Assembly: GCA_017383665.1 (NCBI GenBank)
Contig: JAFNWA010000220.1
Location: 1-24,586, forward strand
Reading direction: 5' to 3'
From: Bacteroidaceae bacterium
Lineage (GTDB): Bacteria; Bacteroidota; Bacteroidia; Bacteroidales; Bacteroidaceae
Length of the DNA: 24,586 nt
In this document: positions 19,408 to 24,586 of the stretch, in pieces
Numbering within the stretch: the stretch's first letter is position 1
Layout: the number at the start of each line of letters is the position of its first letter
Notes under the pieces: generated by a model
What the model saw: only the letters and a program-made list of their open reading frames with translations
What the model was told of the DNA's origin: nothing
Database searches by the model: none
Position numbers and translations under genes: made by a program

Positions 19408-19944
19408 ATGTCAGTAATTAGGATACACGACAAGGAATTTGTGAAGACAATTCCCGCAGAAGAGATTGCTGCTCAAGTAAAGCGCGTTGCAGATAATATA
19501 AACAGAGATTATGCCGGTAAGCGCCCCCTGCTTTTGGGCGTATTGAATGGTTGCTTCATGTTTATGTCGGATTTGATGAAGAACCTAGAACTTGAATGTG
19601 AGGTCTCTTTTGTAAAGCTTTCGTCATATCAGGGCTCCGAGACAACGGGCACTGTGACAGAGGTTATAGGACTCTCCGAATCAATAGAGGGGCGTGATGT
19701 GATAATTGTTGAAGATATTGTGGATACAGGTCTTACAATGCACAAGATGCTTGAGGTGTTGGCTGAGAGCAATCCTGCTTCTCTTGCGATAGCCTCTCTC
19801 TTTTTGAAGCCGGCGCGTTTGCGTGTCTCTGTGGATGTGAAGTATTCGGCTTTTGAAATTCCCGATAGGTTTATTGTTGGCTATGGACTTGACTATGATG
19901 GCCTTGGTCGCAACCTGCCCGATGTGTACGATGTTAAAGAATAA
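19408..19944 (+). CDS. hpt: Hypoxanthine phosphoribosyltransferase
   Basis: VLNGCFMFMSDL, PRPP-binding IIVEDIVDTGLT and FIVGYGLDYDGLGRNLP motifs. Confidence 0.97.
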   Translation: MSVIRIHDKEFVKTIPAEEIAAQVKRVADNINRDYAGKRPLLLGVLNGCFMFMSDLMKNLELECEVSFVKLSSYQGSETTGTVTEVIGLSESIEGRDVIIVEDIVDTGLTMHKMLEVLAESNPASLAIASLFLKPARLRVSVDVKYSAFEIPDRFIVGYGLDYDGLGRNLPDVYDVKE

Positions 19945-19957
19945 AAGTTATTGTAAG

Positions 19958-20536
19958 ATGCTTAATATAGTTATTTTTGGTGCCCCCGGTAGCGGTAAGG
20001 GTACACAGAGCGAAAAAATTGTAGAGAAGTATGGCCTGAACCATATTTCAACCGGTGAGGTTTTGCGTGGTGAGATTGCTGCCGGCACTGAATTGGGCGC
20101 AACAGCGCAGAGATTGATTGATAAGGGGCAACTTATTCCTGATGAGTTGATGATAAGTATTCTTGCTTCAAAACTTGATTCGCTTGCAAGTGGTAACGGA
20201 GTTATCTTTGATGGTTTCCCCAGGACAATAGCGCAGGCCGAGGCCTTGAAGGCGATGCTTAATGAGCGTGGACAGGATGTTGTTGCGATGATTGAGCTTG
20301 ATGTTCCCGAAGATGAGCTGATGTCGCGTCTTTTGCTTCGCGGACAACTTTCGGGTAGAGCCGATGATAATGAGGAGACAATAAAGAAACGCCTTATTGT
20401 CTATAACGAACAGACATCGCCTTTGAAGGAGTGGTACAAAAACGACGGCAAGCACTGTTATATAAACGGTTCCGGCGAACTTGATCGTATTTTTGCAGAT
20501 ATTGTAACTGCGATTGAATTAAAGAAAAATAAATAA
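19958..20536 (+). CDS. adk: Adenylate kinase, short-lid type (start revised to ATG 19958)
   Basis: GAPGSGKGTQS P-loop, HISTGEVLR, DGFPRTIAQA and GRADDNEETI motifs. Confidence 0.97.
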   Translation: MLNIVIFGAPGSGKGTQSEKIVEKYGLNHISTGEVLRGEIAAGTELGATAQRLIDKGQLIPDELMISILASKLDSLASGNGVIFDGFPRTIAQAEALKAMLNERGQDVVAMIELDVPEDELMSRLLLRGQLSGRADDNEETIKKRLIVYNEQTSPLKEWYKNDGKHCYINGSGELDRIFADIVTAIELKKNK

Positions 20537-20570: not shown

Positions 20571-20600
20571 AAGTTGCCGCCGAGTGTGGCAACTTTTGCT
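20571..20600 (+). terminator. Intrinsic terminator-like hairpin after adk
   Basis: AAGTTGCCGC-cgagt-GTGGCAACTT (one G-U pair) followed by TTGCT. Confidence 0.6.
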
Positions 20601-20678
20601 GTTGATTTTGAGATATTATAAAACTGATGGATTTTCCCTCTGTTTGGGGTAAAGTCTGTAGTGCAGAGAAATGTTGTT

Positions 20679-21836
20679 ATGGCAGAATCAAATTTTATCG
20701 ATTATGTAAAGATTGTGTGCCGTTCTGGTCGTGGAGGCCGTGGAATGGCTCACTTGCATCGTGCTAAATATATACCCAATGGCGGCCCTGATGGTGGCGA
20801 CGGCGGCAAGGGGGGTGATATTATCCTCCGTGGAAACCGGAACTACTGGACATTGCTTCACTTGAAATATCAGCGCCATATCTTTGCCGGCAATGGTCAG
20901 AATGGCGGTATCAACAAGAGTACAGGCGCTGATGGCGAGAGTAAAATTGTTGATGTGCCTTGTGGAACAGTGGCATACAATGCCGAGACTGGAGAATTTC
21001 TTTGTGATGTGATGGAGGACGGTCAGCTGGTTACCCTGCTCAAGGGTGGTCGCGGTGGTTTGGGTAATGTCCATTTTGCAACCCCGACACGCCAAGCACC
21101 GCGTTTCGCACAGCCGGGTGAACCAATGCAGGAGATGACTGTGACACTTGAGCTCAAGTTGCTTGCCGATGTTGGCCTTGTGGGCTTCCCGAATGCAGGA
21201 AAGTCAACATTGCTCTCTTCTGTTTCAGCGGCAAAGCCCAAGATTGCCAATTATCCTTTTACTACGCTTGAACCGAATTTGGGAATTGTCTCATATCGCG
21301 ACGGCAAGTCGTTCGTGATGGCCGACATCCCGGGTATCATAGAGGGGGCGAGTCAAGGCAGGGGGCTTGGATTGCGATTCTTGCGCCACATTGAGCGCAA
21401 CTCTTTGCTCCTGTTTATGGTGCCGGCTGATGCCGATGATATAAAGAAGGAGTATGAGGTGTTGCTGAATGAACTTGCAACCTTCAATCCGGAGATGCTT
21501 GACAAGCAGCGTGTGCTCGCAATTACAAAATGTGACCTCATTGACGAGGAACTCAAGGAGATGCTTTCGGAGAATCTTCCCGAGGATGTTCCTTGTGTGT
21601 TTATATCTGCGCCTACCGGTGAAGGAATTCAAGAGTTGAAGGATATTCTTTGGGCGGCGCTCAATAGTGAGGAGAATCGTCTCGCGGCTGTAAAGCGTGA
21701 AGAACTTGTGCACCGAAACTACGACAGGAAGATGCTTGCTGCCGATTTTGCAGACTGGGAAGCAGACTTTGAGGATGAAGTTGAGACTGACGATGATGAC
21801 TTTGACTATGAGGAGTTTGATTTCGATGAGGAGTAA
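20679..21836 (+). CDS. obgE: GTPase ObgE/CgtA (start revised to ATG 20679)
   Basis: Gly-rich Obg fold ([12 protein letters not shown]), [21 protein letters not shown] and TKCD motifs; acidic C-terminal tail. Confidence 0.98.
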
Positions 21837-21878
21837 ATTTCTATAATGCATAAACATAAATCTAAAACAAGATAACTT

Positions 21879-24152
21879 ATGGCTACAAAAAAACATTCTT
21901 GGAATTATGGTAATGTCGGTGGCACCACTCGTGTAAGGATCAAGACCGGTGCAGATATTGCTCATCTTGGAGAGTTGGATCTTAAGAAATGGACAGTACT
22001 CTCATGTCCGACAGTAGGTTTGGATATTGATGAGGTTAGCTTGAAGTATATTGATGCCGACTGTGATGGCCGCATCCGCGTTGATGATGTTATTTCAACA
22101 TCGCAATGGTTGACTTCTGTGGTTAATGATGCTGATATGTTGGTCAAAGGTGATGACCACATTGATATTCAGGCTTTCAATCAGGAGACCCCCGATGGTA
22201 AGAAACTTTATAACTCTGCAAGACAGATAATTGTGAATCTCGGTAAGGAGGGAACAATAATATCTCTGGCCGATACAAAGGATATTGCTGCCATCTTTGC
22301 AAAAACCCGTTTCAATGGCGACGGTGTGATTTCCGAGAATACACCTGAAAATGCAGAGGAAAAGGCTGTCGTGTCTGCAATGCTCAACGCTTTGGGTGGT
22401 GTTGCAGATCGTAGCGGTGTGCAGGGTGTGAACGCTGAACTTATAGAGAAGTTCTATCAGCTCTTGGCTGATTATGTTGCATGGCATGAGTCTGCTGTTG
22501 AGGCTCCATATGGCGCTGATACAGACAAAGCTATTGAGATGTACAATGCTCTCGATGCCAAGGTGAAGGATTATTTTGTGCGCGCAAAGCTCGCATCTTT
22601 TTCACCGGAAAGTGCTGTGAAACTTGATGTGCAGGCGGGGCTTATAGAGTCTATCAGTGCAGAAAATTTGATAGACAAGACTGATGCCATTGCGGCATAT
22701 CCTATCGCTCGTATTACCGGTAAAACAGATTTGGATGTGAATGCTGCGATTAACCCGGCATGGGCCGCAAAATTCAAAACCCTTATCTCAATAGTAAAGC
22801 CAAAGGAAAAAATACTTACAGAGGAAACTTGGGCTGCAATCGGTGCTTCTTTTGCCGCATACAATGCATGGAAGGCTGCAAAGAAGGGTTGTGAGGTTGA
22901 GGCGTTGGGGCTTGACGCAATAAAGCAGTTACTGGCGGATGACAAAAAGCAGGCTCTTCTTGATCTTGTTGCGCAGGATGCAGAACTCAAGGAGACCGCA
23001 GATGGTATAGATATGGTGCAGAAATTCATGTATCTGTACCGTGATTTCTACCGTTTGCTATGTAACTATGTCACATTCCAGGATTTTTATACCAAGGATA
23101 AGGGAGTGAAGGCGATTTTCCAGAGTGGACGCCTGATTATCGACCAGCGTGAATGTCGTATGTGTATGAATGTTGCTGACATGGCAAAACATAACACTAT
23201 GGCTCCTGCGAGTGGAATGTATCTTGTGTATTGTGATTGTTCTACCAAGGCCAGTGCGGTAAAAAAGAGTATTGTTGCTGCGGTTACCGTTGGTGATGTG
23301 GGTGATCTTTTCGTGGGTAAAAATGCTATATATTTTGACAATGCCGGTTTGATGTGGGATGCTGTCATCACAAAAATTGTGGACAATCCTATCAGCGTAG
23401 GTCAGGCTTTCTGGTCGCCTTACCGTCGCATGGCGACCACTGTTGAGAATTTGATAAACAAACGCGCTGCAGAAAAAGATGCTGCAGTGATGAATGATGC
23501 CAATGCTAAAATAAATGCTGCACCTGATTCAAAACCTGCAGATAAAGAGGCTAAGCCTCCGTTTGATATCGCGAAATTTGCCGGTATATTTGCTGCCATT
23601 GGTATGGCGGTCGGTATGATTGGTACACTCCTTATGAGTGTGTTCAAGGGACTCTTTGCTCTTGAATGGTGGCAGTTGATTTTGACCTTTATCGGTATAT
23701 TGCTGGTTATATCCGGTCCTGCAATGGTTATGGCCTGGATGAAATTGCGCCGTCGTAACATAGCTCCGCTGCTCAATGCCAATGGATGGGCTATCAATGC
23801 TTCGTCAAAGATTAGTATCCCATTCGGTGAGACATTGACCGATATTGTAAAATTCCCCAAAATGAAGGTTAAGGATCCTTTTGCAAAGAAAGGTCTTTCT
23901 GCATTTCAGAAATGGGTAATCTCGTTGCTGGTTGTTGCAGTTGTGGCAACAGGTTTGTGGCTCGGAAACCTGCTTTCTTGGATGGGTGTCTCGTCTCCGT
24001 TGTCTTGCTTTAAGAAAGATAAGGTGGAGACGGTGGCAGCGCAGTCGGAAACTGAAAAAGCACCTGATGCAGAAGATGCTGCGCCTGTTGCGGAAGGTGC
24101 TCCTGTAGTAGAGGAGCCTAAAGCAGATGCCGAGGCTGATGCTGAGGTGTGA
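21879..24152 (+). CDS. Uncharacterised 757-aa membrane protein with N-terminal EF-hand-like loop and three C-terminal TM helices
   Basis: Long uninterrupted ORF with A-rich initiation region; DADCDGRIRVDD at aa 59-70; hydrophobic segments at about aa 567-589, 597-621 and 679-701. Function not assignable. Confidence 0.9.
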   Translation: MATKKHSWNYGNVGGTTRVRIKTGADIAHLGELDLKKWTVLSCPTVGLDIDEVSLKYIDADCDGRIRVDDVISTSQWLTSVVNDADMLVKGDDHIDIQAFNQETPDGKKLYNSARQIIVNLGKEGTIISLADTKDIAAIFAKTRFNGDGVISENTPENAEEKAVVSAMLNALGGVADRSGVQGVNAELIEKFYQLLADYVAWHESAVEAPYGADTDKAIEMYNALDAKVKDYFVRAKLASFSPESAVKLDVQAGLIESISAENLIDKTDAIAAYPIARITGKTDLDVNAAINPAWAAKFKTLISIVKPKEKILTEETWAAIGASFAAYNAWKAAKKGCEVEALGLDAIKQLLADDKKQALLDLVAQDAELKETADGIDMVQKFMYLYRDFYRLLCNYVTFQDFYTKDKGVKAIFQSGRLIIDQRECRMCMNVADMAKHNTMAPASGMYLVYCDCSTKASAVKKSIVAAVTVGDVGDLFVGKNAIYFDNAGLMWDAVITKIVDNPISVGQAFWSPYRRMATTVENLINKRAAEKDAAVMNDANAKINAAPDSKPADKEAKPPFDIAKFAGIFAAIGMAVGMIGTLLMSVFKGLFALEWWQLILTFIGILLVISGPAMVMAWMKLRRRNIAPLLNANGWAINASSKISIPFGETLTDIVKFPKMKVKDPFAKKGLSAFQKWVISLLVVAVVATGLWLGNLLSWMGVSSPLSCFKKDKVETVAAQSETEKAPDAEDAAPVAEGAPVVEEPKADAEADAEV

Positions 24153-24165
24153 TTACCTTATTATA

Positions 24166-24214
24166 ATATATACATCATGAGCGACGGTTCTGCCGTCGCT
24201 CATGATGTATATAT
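24166..24214 (+). terminator. Perfect 22-bp stem with 5-nt loop after the 757-aa gene; likely terminator or processing stem
   Basis: ATATATACATCATGAGCGACGG-ttctg-CCGTCGCTCATGATGTATATAT. Confidence 0.7.
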
Positions 24215-24420
24215 GAGTGTGCTTGTGAGTTGCGCTTAGGCTTTGTTTTTTTATGTTTATTCTTCTATTTACTCTCCAATTTTAAACTTTAAGTTTTTTT
24301 AACAATAAAAATAGTGGTTTTAGCACTGCTTTTAGGGCGTTTTTTGCGCAAAATGGTCTTTTTGTGTGATGGCTTTTGCTAAAAAGCAGTCAAATGTTTT
24401 TTTATTTGAAATATAATTTT

Positions 24421-24428
24421 TACCTTTG
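24421..24428 (+). promoter_or_regulatory. -7 promoter element (TACCTTTG) for rpsL and the str operon
   Basis: Exact TAnnTTTG match in the typical TACCTTTGCA context, 88 nt upstream of the ATG. Confidence 0.75.
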
Positions 24429-24516
24429 CAGTCCAAAATGGACTATCGTGTTTTGATGTGTCCGCTTGAGCAGAAATATTTAAAAACAATATAATAATAA
24501 TTAAAAATTTAACAAA

Positions 24517-24586
24517 ATGCCTACAATTCAGCAATTAGTAAGAAAAGGCAGAGAGGTTATTGTAGAGAAGAGCAAGTCACCTGCAC
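24517..24586 (+). CDS. rpsL: 30S ribosomal protein S12, first 23 codons (truncated by the window edge)
   Basis: MPTIQQLVRKGREVIVEKSKSPA is the characteristic S12 N-terminus. Confidence 0.96.
   Translation, partial: MPTIQQLVRKGREVIVEKSKSPA

What the first reader, a model, noticed from the sequence alone, without database searches (positions are those of the whole stretch)
21879..24152. 757-aa EF-hand plus 3-TM protein of unknown function: candidate Ca2+-sensing membrane system
Seen: this is the only large gene here that I cannot place in a named family. It has no signal peptide, a canonical EF-hand loop D59-A-D-C-D-G-R-I-R-V-D-D70, a second degenerate loop (N146-G-D-G-V-I), a long helical region, a beta-rich block (about aa 415-505) and a coiled-coil-like segment. 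A TM hairpin follows, whose first helix is small-residue rich (AGIFAAIGMAVGMIG, containing GxxxG), then a basic KLRRRN loop with LNANGWAIN, a third TM and an Ala/Glu/Pro/Asp-rich tail. Established: DxDxDGxIxxx(D/E) is the Ca2+-binding EF loop, GxxxG promotes TM oligomerisation, and the positive-inside rule applies. Inference: the N-terminal about 560 aa is cytoplasmic and couples Ca2+ or another ligand to an oligomeric membrane module (gated channel, stress sensor or abortive-infection-type effector). I recall similar hypothetical proteins from other phyla but cannot verify that here.
Basis: partly seen in the sequence, partly recalled or inferred. Interest (0 to 1): 0.72.

Follow-up and report, generated by a model that had tools for sequence, protein, structure and literature searches.

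The report
Unnamed EF-hand membrane protein family
This gene encodes a real, strongly conserved membrane protein with a textbook calcium-binding loop on its cytoplasmic side; it belongs to a very large family, common in gut bacteria, that has no name or known function.

Summary
The 757-aa ORF at 21879-24152 (+) is real. It is under purifying selection (dN/dS 0.06-0.10) and is covered by RNA-library contigs from two studies.

It belongs to a very large unnamed family: 3065 representatives at 50% identity, and at least 596 confirmed stretches in the one-genome-per-species collection. Members occur in Bacteroidales, including Segatella copri, and in Bilophila and Desulfovibrio. There was no match above threshold in Pfam, NCBIfam, PADLOC or PHROGs, and no significant PDB sequence match.

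The EF loop at aa 59-70 is canonical and conserved at every liganding position in 118-120 of 120 homologues. The second loop (NGDG) is conserved but not canonical. The topology, with the N-terminus inside and a basic cytoplasmic loop, holds in 120 of 120.

The gene stands alone. No neighbour is conserved, it is absent from the phage and viral collections, and its distribution is patchy. A same-genus genome has an empty site at this locus.

The abortive-infection idea gets no support from gene context. NCBI's label "ABC transporter permease" on Desulfovibrio homologues is unsupported.

The scan had flagged this family on at least 8 other genomes, and none of those notes was resolved.

The parts
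21879..24152 (+). Whole ORF, 757 aa plus stop: a member of a large unnamed EF-hand/3-TM family
   Evidence: dN/dS 0.06-0.10; covered by RNA-library contigs
21954..21989 (+). aa 26-37, a possible degenerate first EF loop that pairs with the canonical one (D26, L33, D34 and K36 conserved). This is inference only.
   Evidence: An insignificant HMMER sub-alignment to a CDPK EF pair; conservation
22053..22088 (+). aa 59-70, canonical 12-residue EF-hand loop
   Evidence: Liganding positions conserved in 118-120 of 120. EF-hand Pfam models recur weakly in homologues. 19 of the 28 weak PDB profile hits are EF-hand proteins.
22308..22343 (+). aa 144-155, conserved but non-canonical loop (F-N-G-D-G-V/I-I). 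It is missing from the short forms of the family.
22446..23048 (+). aa 190-390, helix-prone middle region of lower conservation. Together with aa ~140-190 it is deleted in ~565-aa short forms.
23049..23468 (+). aa 391-530, highly conserved beta-prone block (invariant G417, L419, Y451, D487, A510, P514). No relative detected in Pfam or PDB.
23469..23576 (+). aa 531-566, helix-prone, poorly conserved linker that leads into the conserved FD..KF motif before TM1
23577..23642 (+). aa 567-588, TM1 with a conserved face of small residues (Gly/Ala)
23667..23738 (+). aa 597-620, TM2 with the near-invariant S612-G613-P614 motif
23739..23909 (+). aa 621-677, basic cytoplasmic loop and the most conserved stretch of the family (invariant R626, L632, W637, A638, N640)
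   Evidence: net positive in 120 of 120
23910..23978 (+). aa 678-700, TM3, poorly conserved in sequence
23979..24149 (+). aa 701-757, acidic Ala/Glu/Pro-rich tail. It is not conserved and is absent from many homologues. Predicted to lie outside the cytoplasm.
24166..24214 (+). Perfect 23-bp stem with a 3-nt loop, directly after the stop codon; probable terminator of the obg-ORF unit
   Evidence: -43.3 kcal/mol, z -6.78, 0 of 200 shuffles fold as well; sequence
20661..21836 (+). obg (GTPase ObgE), 42 nt upstream on the same strand; probably co-transcribed with the ORF
   Evidence: Three RNA-library contigs bridge the junction. No TAnnTTTG motif lies between 20880 and the ORF start.

Best explanation
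The ORF encodes a bona fide inner-membrane protein of a very large, unnamed and uncharacterised family.

Architecture: the first ~560 residues face the cytoplasm. They hold an N-terminal EF-hand domain with one canonical Ca2+ loop, a dispensable helical spacer, and a highly conserved beta-rich domain. The protein is held in the membrane by a tight TM1-TM2 hairpin (a Gly/Ala face on TM1, an S-G-P kink in TM2). A ~55-residue basic, near-invariant cytoplasmic loop follows, then a third, poorly conserved TM helix.

Most likely mechanism: the protein is a self-contained sensor and effector. A rise in cytoplasmic Ca2+ (for example a leak after envelope damage, in Ca2+-rich gut or rumen fluid) fills the EF loop. 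The resulting change passes through the beta domain and the juxtamembrane loop to an oligomeric hairpin module, which alters membrane permeability or organisation.

Shown: the gene is real, conserved and found in RNA libraries; the EF-loop ligand positions are conserved; the topology signal holds family-wide; the gene stands alone.

Inferred: Ca2+ binding, oligomerisation, and the nature of the output.
For: Gene reality and family size:
- ORF confirmed. dN/dS 0.06-0.10 against five relatives.
- RNA-library contigs of two studies cover most of the ORF.
- 3065 representatives at E<=1e-3, of which 1351 at E<=1e-30. 596 of 600 candidate stretches in species genomes confirmed.

EF hand:
- All liganding positions are conserved in 118-120 of 120 homologues.
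- EF-hand_7, EF-hand_6, EF-hand_5 and EF-hand_1 are the only Pfam families matched by more than two members in either of two member sets: 6, 4, 2 and 1 of 64, and 9, 4, 0 and 3 of 57.
- 19 of the 28 weak PDB profile hits are EF-hand proteins. They align at the two loops.

Topology:
- No N-terminal hydrophobic segment and three TM segments.
- The TM2-TM3 loop is net positive in 120 of 120.

Coupling:
- The conservation peaks lie in the EF region, in the end of the beta block (aa 481-520), and in the juxtamembrane loop (aa 621-640).
- Short forms keep exactly these parts and lose aa ~140-365.

Self-contained:
- No conserved neighbour. The best non-self cluster is in 10 of 80 loci and in 4 of 30.
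- No fused longer forms were found.
Against: - The fold of the beta block and TM module is unknown, and oligomerisation is pure inference from a small-residue helix face.
- P0001 itself scores only 14.8 bits on EF-hand_7, against a cutoff of 30. None of the eleven proteins scanned individually (P0001 and ten homologues) reached a Pfam EF-hand cutoff.
- There is only one canonical loop, and EF hands normally work in pairs.
- Position 9 of the loop is Arg in 110 of 120. By my recollection that is unusual.
- No conserved acidic or polar pore-like residues lie in TM1, TM2 or their loop.
- DxDxDG loops can be purely structural Ca2+ sites.
- The distribution is patchy, so the function is dispensable in most relatives.
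Confidence: 0.38

Rival explanations
1. The Ca2+ site is structural or regulatory only. On this reading the protein is a membrane-anchored scaffold or enzyme of envelope or lipid homeostasis. The near-invariant juxtamembrane loop and beta domain would form a binding or catalytic site at the inner leaflet.
For: - The strongest conservation lies in polar, enzyme-like motifs of the cytoplasmic loop (R626, N627, N635, G636, W637, N640, T654) and of the beta block (D422, R424, D487), not in the TM helices.
- In all 3 Desulfovibrionaceae loci examined (the Bilophila query and two relatives 68-76% identical to it), an AsmA-family (lipid-transfer) gene sits upstream on the same strand.
- The window and most neighbourhoods are housekeeping.
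Against: - The AsmA linkage was not found in the 110 Bacteroidota loci by blastp/tblastn. It may be plain synteny among relatives.
- There is no sequence relation to any enzyme or transporter family.
- The patchy distribution is unusual for a core envelope function.
Confidence: 0.25
2. A single-gene anti-phage or abortive-infection (or other suicide/toxin-like) effector. Ca2+ influx on infection would trigger a membrane-disrupting hairpin.
For: - The distribution is patchy even within the genus: 2 of 9 other species, 22 of 201 in the family, 16 of 201 in the order, 8 of 301 in the phylum.
- It behaves as a single-gene indel. Same-genus genome G671 has an empty obg-rpsL site and keeps its own copy elsewhere.
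- The gene tree does not follow family labels: 'Bacteroidaceae' needs 7 changes.
- There are weak sub-threshold hits of the hairpin to holin superfamily III models in single members.
Against: - No PADLOC match. No conserved partner or defence-island context.
- Absent from phage records and from viral contigs. Only one partial plasmid hit.
- Strong purifying selection and very high sequence conservation across phyla.
- Own-genus copies are monophyletic. That fits vertical descent with loss and relocation.
- The holin hits do not recur: 1 of 64, then 1 and 1 of 57.
Confidence: 0.1
3. An ABC transporter permease, as NCBI names the Desulfovibrio homologues.
For: - The name appears on 6 of the 120 listed rows and.
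- There is a very weak phmmer hit of aa 583-707 to MlaE (E 0.7).
An ABC_tran cluster occurs in 7 of 80 loci.
Against: - No NCBIfam or Pfam permease model matches any of 5 homologues, even at E<=1, nor P0001.
- MlaE is absent from the family-profile PDB search at E<=10.
- There are only three TM helices.
- The ABC ATPase neighbour sits at varying offsets and is not conserved.
Confidence: 0.02

Closest known systems
EF-hand Ca2+-binding proteins (Pfam EF-hand_7 PF13499, EF-hand_6, EF-hand_1; e.g. polcalcins, CDPK regulatory domains, neuronal calcium sensor 1, Entamoeba CaBP1)
   Same: The 12-residue loop at aa 59-70 has the canonical pattern: D at positions 1, 3 and 5, G at 6, a hydrophobic residue at 8, and an acidic residue at 12. 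Helix-prone segments flank it. These proteins are the only recurrent weak hits in Pfam and PDB.
   Different: - Only one canonical loop. Its partner loops are degenerate.
- Scores stay below Pfam cutoffs in all eleven proteins scanned individually, P0001 and ten homologues.
- The EF part is under 15% of a 757-aa membrane protein, and the rest has no known relative.
Ligand-gated membrane effectors built as 'cytoplasmic sensor + few TM helices', such as the CBASS Cap15-type beta-barrel/2-TM effectors (recalled from the literature, not from a call)
   Same: The same logic of a soluble sensor domain (here an EF hand plus a beta-rich domain) joined to a small TM module that would act by oligomerising.
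   Different: - The domain order is reversed.
- There is no signal-producing partner gene and no defence context.
- No PADLOC match.
- The resemblance is architectural only and was not tested structurally.
MlaE-type ABC transporter permeases (the source of NCBI's label on Desulfovibrio homologues)
   Same: An inner-membrane location, and a chance-level local similarity of the TM region (E 0.7).
   Different: - Three TM helices, not the MlaE fold.
- No model match.
- No conserved ATPase partner.
Phage holin superfamily III (Pfam Phage_holin_3_6, Phage_holin_3_3)
   Same: A small-residue-rich TM hairpin. Single members give sub-threshold hits (best E 6.6e-4, 20.2 bits against a cutoff of 28.4).
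   Different: - The hits occur in only 1 of 64 members, and in 1 of 57 for each of the two holin models.
- The family is not in phages.
- The protein is about ten times larger than a holin.

Membership tests
EF-hand (Pfam clan; PF13499/PF13405/PF00036) | A 12-residue loop with liganding residues at positions 1, 3, 5 and 12, Gly at 6 and a hydrophobic residue at 8 | tested here: met
   aa 59-70. The positions are conserved in 108-120 of 120 homologues.
EF-hand (Pfam clan; PF13499/PF13405/PF00036) | A score at or above Pfam's gathering threshold | tested here: not met
   P0001 scores 14.8 bits against 30. Ten diverse homologues all score below cutoff. The best member E-value is 1.1e-5, but the bits for that member were not shown.
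EF-hand (Pfam clan; PF13499/PF13405/PF00036) | A helix-loop-helix pair (two EF hands packed together) | tested here: inconclusive
   The flanks are helix-prone by a crude profile. Candidate partner loops at aa 26-37 and 144-155 are degenerate. No structure was available.
EF-hand (Pfam clan; PF13499/PF13405/PF00036) | Ca2+ binding | not testable with these tools
   Needs ITC, 45Ca overlay or a mobility-shift assay.
ABC transporter permease (NCBI label on homologues) | A match to a permease model or fold, a polytopic TM domain, and a cognate ATPase partner | tested here: not met
   No NCBIfam or Pfam match. Three TM segments. No conserved ATPase neighbour.
Known anti-phage defence proteins (PADLOC-DB v2) | A match to a defence-system model, or a place in a defence island | tested here: not met
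   0 families for P0001. The window is housekeeping. No conserved neighbours.
Phage holins, superfamily III | A model match at threshold, small size, and a phage or lysis-cassette context | tested here: not met
   Only sub-threshold hits that do not recur. Absent from phages and viral contigs. No PHROG match.

The most novel reading that the evidence does not exclude
The family is a previously unrecognised kind of bacterial Ca2+-signalling output module with a new fold. It would be a stand-alone cytoplasmic EF-hand sensor, hard-wired through a novel beta domain and an invariant juxtamembrane loop to an oligomerising Gly-zipper hairpin. Ca2+ entry after envelope damage would switch membrane permeability, or repair or lipid organisation. 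It would be widespread in gut anaerobes (Bacteroidales, Bilophila, Desulfovibrio).
Probability: 0.25. Interest if true: 0.8.

Novelty: new variant of a known kind. Interest (0 to 1): 0.55.

Why it matters
Ca2+ signalling in bacteria is poorly understood. Few cytoplasmic Ca2+ sensors with a defined output are known.

This family is very large: 3065 clusters at 50% identity. It is common in gut organisms of medical and ecological interest, including Segatella copri, Bilophila wadsworthia, and gut Desulfovibrio. The Bilophila copy turns up at 99% identity in many human gut metagenome contigs.

It has no Pfam or NCBIfam model, and part of it carries a wrong name in public databases. It joins a fully conserved canonical EF loop to a membrane module with no known relative, all in one gene. 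That makes it a directly testable candidate for how a Ca2+ signal is turned into a membrane event.

At the least, it deserves a family definition and correction of the 'ABC transporter permease' label.

Tried and rejected
Searches that found nothing or stayed below threshold:
- Pfam, NCBIfam, PADLOC and PHROGs scans of P0001 and diverse homologues gave nothing at threshold.
- PDB sequence searches, by single sequence and by 120-sequence profile, gave only weak EF-hand hits and nothing for the beta block or TM module.
- The ESM Atlas returned only the family's own unnamed clusters for the whole protein. A named-cluster search with the core (aa 385-715) gave no usable hit. The Atlas holds no model, so there was no structure search.
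- A search for fused forms over 1325 aa found none. The tool itself rates that as weak evidence.
- Rfam found only a sub-threshold microRNA-model hit on the terminator palindrome, which I dismiss. No tRNA was found.

Leads considered and rejected:
- Holin lead: rejected because it does not recur.
- Zn or metal site at the four cysteines: rejected, since all four are present in only 51 of 120 and are replaced singly by hydrophobic residues.
- AsmA linkage: seen in 3 of 3 Desulfovibrionaceae loci, but no blastp or tblastn hit in the 110 Bacteroidota loci. That is a weak test with three queries.
- Conserved neighbours: none.
- Mobile-element association: no phage match, one partial plasmid match, no viral contigs.

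Literature: three full-text searches. One search found 252 papers with at least 4 of 5 terms. I saw the titles and abstract openings of the 15 listed, and none was on this family. Searches found 0 papers each. I read no paper. Tn-seq or fitness tables in supplements could bear on function.

RNA runs: the lack of cover at 24058-24456 in all four runs is no evidence of a transcript end, because the runs are kept as contigs.

Secondary structure comes only from a Chou-Fasman-type profile with propensity values recalled from memory. It is crude.

Rows dropped or not used:
- The tree used 104 rows. Target ORFs under 500 aa, and loci whose ORF did not fall in the target cluster (6 of 80), were left out. 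It is a FastTree run without bootstraps, and 15 rows have an odd composition.
- A2 used 120 sequences: 109 of the 150 listed representatives (near full-length ones), 10 locus ORFs, and the query.
- Of the 65 metagenome loci, I listed ORFs in five (L111, L140, L142, L153, L156) and annotated neighbours in four (L111, L140, L142, L153).
Full report
**The observation**

The window holds an ATG-initiated ORF at 21879-24152 on the + strand, encoding 757 aa. Local base composition is unremarkable: GC is 0.44-0.48 here against 0.40-0.50 across the window.

- There is no hydrophobic N-terminus. The highest 19-residue hydropathy mean in aa 1-540 is 1.2.
- The loop at D59-D70 and the NGDG motif at aa 146-149 are both there.
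- Three hydrophobic segments lie at about aa 567-588, 597-620 and 678-700.
- Between TM2 and TM3 is a basic loop. Overlapping windows aa 618-660 and 660-690 each hold 6 K+R, against 2 and 1 D+E.
- The tail is acidic, with 14 D+E.

**Is it a real gene?**

Yes.
- A word-indexed search found 5796 proteins at E<=1e-3 among 8000 scored candidates.
- An exhaustive profile search of 1.84 billion 50%-identity representatives found 3065 at E<=1e-3, 2490 at E<=1e-10 and 1351 at E<=1e-30.
- dN/dS against five relatives is 0.06-0.10, although dS is near saturation (1.3-2.5).
- Contigs from four metatranscriptome libraries of two studies lie on most of the ORF at 95% identity or better. Three of them bridge the 42-nt gap to obg: X1 21567-22185, X2 21767-22197 and X3 21722-21886. 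These are contigs from RNA libraries. They show presence, not a proven transcript, and DNA carry-over cannot be excluded.

**Family assignment**

- P0001 has no match at threshold in Pfam. The best matches are Pilus_CpaD at E 0.013 and EF-hand_7 at E 0.037 (14.8 bits against a cutoff of 30). NCBIfam and PADLOC also give nothing.
- Six diverse members have no PHROG match.
- PDB sequence searches give nothing significant. With the 120-sequence profile, 28 chains appear at E<=10. By their names, 19 of these are EF-hand Ca2+-binding proteins (CDPK, polcalcins, NCS-1, calmodulin-like proteins, Entamoeba CaBPs). They align at profile positions 54-94 or 133-200, which are the two loops. The best E-value is 0.016.
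- Nothing aligns to the beta block or to the TM module.
- All 120 best relatives lack a precomputed Pfam domain. The only names among them are 'hypothetical protein'.

**The EF hand**

I aligned 120 sequences that are 27-77% identical to the query (A2). In this alignment the loop reads as follows:

| Loop position | Residue(s) | Count of 120 |
|---|---|---|
| 1 | D | 118 |
| 3 | D / N | 107 / 11 |
| 5 | D | 118 |
| 6 | G | 108 |
| 8 | I, V or L | 120 |
| 12 | E / D | 100 / 19 |

- The same positions are invariant or nearly so in an independent set biased towards Desulfovibrionaceae (A5).
- EF-hand models are the only Pfam families matched by more than two members in either set. In one set, EF-hand_7, _6, _5 and _1 match 6, 4, 2 and 1 of 64 members (best E 1.1e-5). 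In the other, EF-hand_7, _6 and _1 match 9, 4 and 3 of 57. MFS_1 is the next most frequent, at 1 of 64 and 2 of 57.

Caveats:
- No individually scanned protein reached a Pfam EF-hand cutoff.
- Position 9 is Arg in 110 of 120. By my recollection that is unusual.
- Only one loop is canonical. The NGDG loop is conserved (110-116 of 120), but its position 1 is P, R or A and its position 12 is S, A or T.
- A third, degenerate loop may lie at aa 26-37, about 33 residues before the canonical one. That spacing is, by my recollection, roughly that of an EF pair. This idea rests only on an insignificant HMMER sub-alignment and on the conservation of D26, L33, D34 and K36.

**Architecture and topology**

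- Conservation averaged over 20-residue windows peaks at aa 621-640 (0.78), 481-520 (0.66-0.71), 601-620 (0.62), and at 21-80, 381-400 and 461-480 (0.59-0.60). It is lowest in the linker at aa 541-560 (0.25) and in the tail (0.13).
- The TM2-TM3 loop is net positive in 120 of 120 sequences (median +7). The segment before TM1 and the TM1-TM2 loop are neutral.
- With no signal peptide and 560 residues before TM1, this supports the following path: N-terminus in the cytoplasm, TM1 outward, TM2 inward, the basic loop in the cytoplasm, TM3 outward, and the variable tail outside.
- TM1 carries a conserved small-residue face (G569, A572, A573, G575, A577, G579, G582). TM2 carries S612-G613-P614.
- No acidic residue is conserved in TM1, TM2 or their short connecting loop.
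- The four cysteines (426, 429, 452, 454) are all present in only 51 of 120 sequences. They are replaced one at a time by L, V, I or F, so they are buried residues rather than an obligate metal site.
- Short forms of about 545-570 aa lack aa ~140-365. They keep the EF domain, the beta block and the TM module. Earlier notes describe the same.
It is helix-prone at aa 56-135 (72% H), 190-390 (82% H) and 513-560 (85% H), and beta-prone at aa 413-512 (43% E against 26% H).

**Context in the window**

Upstream on the same strand lie hpt, adk and obg. Further upstream are ffh and a DUF4831 gene. The rest of the window holds dnaX, a glucosaminidase-LysM gene, recF, a nucleoside symporter, rsmE, truA, an EamA gene, a PGA_cap gene and folD.

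- A terminator-like hairpin follows adk at 20571-20595.
- Only 42 nt separate obg from the ORF. No TAnnTTTG motif lies between 20880 and the start codon. The motif itself is recalled, not taken from a call.
- After the stop codon comes a perfect 23-bp stem at 24166-24214. It folds at -43.3 kcal/mol with z -6.78, and 0 of 200 shuffles fold as well.
- A TAnnTTTG motif follows at 24421. At 24518 an ORF begins whose first residues I recognise, by eye and not by a call, as ribosomal protein S12 (rpsL). RNA-contig depth there jumps to 37-95 in three of the four runs, and is 5 in X3.
- The simplest reading is an obg-ORF transcription unit that ends at the hairpin.

**Distribution**

| Group sampled | Genomes with a match |
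|---|---|
| Phylum | 8 of 301 |
| Order | 16 of 201 |
| Family | 22 of 201 |
| Own genus (other species) | 2 of 9 |

The first three counts include G000, the window's own genome.

- G000 has one copy. It is a 1.5-Mb assembly in 336 contigs and is 68% complete.
- In the one-genome-per-species collection, 596 of 600 pattern-matched stretches encode a relative.
- The best 80 are almost all gut or rumen Bacteroidales MAGs. They include a Segatella copri record at 50% identity.
- A few carry other labels (Oscillospiraceae, Treponemataceae, Proteobacteria, Candidatus Egerieisoma). They sit inside Bacteroidales clades on short MAG contigs. Binning error is as likely an explanation as gene transfer.
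- Outside Bacteroidota, the family is in Desulfovibrio spp. and in Bilophila wadsworthia. The Bilophila protein (WP_302456612.1, 'hypothetical protein') belongs to a 90% cluster of 1668 member sequences. It occurs at 99% identity on many human gut metagenome contigs.
- The Atlas lists look-alike clusters whose commonest phyla are Bacteroidota, Thermodesulfobacteriota and Pseudomonadota.

**Stand-alone, relocating gene**

- Clustering all ORFs of 80 loci (920 ORFs, 621 clusters) gives no conserved neighbour. The largest non-self cluster, ribosomal protein S15, is in 10 of 80 loci and sits at varying offsets.
- Other recurrent neighbours are a GT1 glycosyltransferase (at +1 in 6 loci), RNase R, a pseudouridine synthase, an amidohydrolase and an ABC ATPase (7 of 80).
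- Same-genus genome G671 has an obg 97% identical to the window's. There, hpt-adk-obg is followed after about 230 bp by the rpsL leader, with its own different terminator hairpin. The 2.45-kb stretch that holds the ORF is missing.
- G671's own copy (77% aa identity) lies on another contig. The same is true for G687.
- Two other MAGs (L031 and L032) are collinear with the window over the full 5.2 kb.
- In the FastTree of 104 rows, the window's copy sits in an own-genus clade of 7 rows (support 99) inside an own-family clade of 13 rows (support 100). This is compatible with vertical descent, loss and relocation.
- The label 'Bacteroidaceae' needs 7 changes on the tree. The copies of another Bacteroidota class (f21) group with the Desulfovibrionaceae and high-GC sequences (support 100).
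- The family is absent from 50,697 phage records and from the IMG/VR viral contigs. It gives one partial hit (17% of the query) on an Aeromonas plasmid.

**What it most likely does**

The evidence supports a self-contained membrane protein whose cytoplasmic part begins with a Ca2+-binding EF domain.

The three conservation peaks are the EF region, the end of the beta domain and the juxtamembrane loop. All three are retained in the short forms. This suggests that the three parts work together next to the inner leaflet. The small-residue face of TM1 and the S-G-P kink of TM2 suggest tight helix packing, possibly in an oligomer.

My best reading (confidence about 0.38) is as follows:
- At resting sub-micromolar Ca2+ the site is empty.
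- Ca2+ entry from Ca2+-rich gut or rumen fluid, for instance after membrane damage, fills it.
- This switches the membrane module, changing permeability or membrane organisation.
- A lone canonical EF hand could also act by Ca2+-dependent pairing between subunits.

All of this beyond the conserved motifs and the topology is inference.

Rivals:
- (a) A structural Ca2+ site in a scaffold or enzyme of envelope or lipid homeostasis (0.25). The enzyme-like polar conservation of the loop supports it. So does an AsmA - X - SbcCD arrangement in 3 of 3 Desulfovibrionaceae loci, although that arrangement was not found in Bacteroidota.
- (b) A single-gene defence or suicide effector (0.10). Patchiness and the indel behaviour favour it. 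The housekeeping context, the lack of any PADLOC, phage or viral link, and the strong conservation count against it.
- (c) An ABC permease (0.02). This is NCBI's label on 6 of the 120 listed rows. No model supports it, and neither does the profile PDB search.
- A holin-like reading rests on sub-threshold hits that do not recur.

**Comparison with what is known, and novelty**

The N-terminal loop works like, and by motif is, an EF hand. It does not reach Pfam's threshold, and the pairing could not be checked.

The remaining ~85% of the protein has no detectable relative by sequence. The Atlas named-cluster search with the core gave no usable hit. Three literature searches found nothing on such a family. 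I saw only titles and abstract openings, and supplements were closed.

I rate it a new variant of a known kind, namely EF-hand-regulated membrane proteins. Without a fold comparison I cannot claim a categorically new module, and I give that reading about 0.25.

The scan has flagged the same family on at least eight other genomes. All are first-reader notes without follow-up, and none is resolved.

**Verdict**

The EF hand, the cytoplasmic N-terminal domain and the homologues in other phyla hold up. The channel or effector output is untested, and the defence option is disfavoured by context.
- Interest is 0.55. This is a very large, gut-prevalent, unnamed family with a clean, testable Ca2+-sensor hypothesis, but no mechanistic evidence could be obtained here.

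Noticed in passing
window 24421-24586: A Bacteroides-type TAnnTTTG promoter motif lies at 24421. An ORF starts at 24518 and runs off the contig; its first residues look like ribosomal protein S12 (rpsL). RNA-contig depth jumps to 37-95 there in three of the four runs (5 in X3).
   Followed up: partly
window 24166-24214: A perfect 23-bp palindrome with a 3-nt loop sits right after the stop codon (-43.3 kcal/mol, z -6.78). It lacks an adjacent T-run; the nearest run of T starts about 30 nt downstream. Rfam gives only a spurious sub-threshold microRNA hit on it.
   Followed up: yes
window 19853-20536 versus 19408-19944: The mechanical adk ORF (TTG start at 19853) overlaps hpt by 92 nt. The adenylate kinase models match only from residue ~37, so the true adk start is probably near 19960.
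   Followed up: no
L111 4329-15216, L142 2660-14495, L140 3907-10199 (Bilophila/Desulfovibrionaceae metagenome contigs): In Desulfovibrionaceae the family member lies between an AsmA-family gene (1060-1194 aa, same strand, upstream) and sbcD/sbcC. AsmA is seen in 3 of 3 loci examined; sbcC follows in L111, sbcD in L142 (its next ORF was not scanned), and nothing downstream was scanned in L140. It may be plain synteny.
   Followed up: partly
L007 1441-3144 (-), L008 838-2523 (+), and earlier notes e1-4051150, e1-4056635, e1-4096091: Short forms of the family (~545-570 aa) lack aa ~140-365. They end in a Cys-rich C-terminal tail after TM3, where this window's protein has an acidic tail. The role of that Cys tail is unknown.
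   Followed up: no
window 20661-24586, neighbour clusters in L031-L110, and earlier notes: Neighbours are often translation-related. Here they are obg and rpsL. Elsewhere they are rpsO (10 of 80 loci), RNase R and a pseudouridine synthase. Earlier notes mention rpsA and rlmH. I made no statistical test, and the pattern may reflect related MAGs or chance.
   Followed up: no
L176 2657-2887 (G671, same genus): The 'empty' obg-rpsL spacer of G671 carries its own, unrelated terminator hairpin. So the two species differ by replacement of a ~230-bp spacer with a 2.45-kb gene-plus-hairpin unit. I saw no flanking repeats.
   Followed up: partly
H1, NZ_CP060033.1 61430-61819 (Aeromonas salmonicida conjugative plasmid): An unannotated 130-residue stretch is 36% identical to aa 323-454 of the protein. 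It may be a gene fragment of a gammaproteobacterial family member.
   Followed up: no
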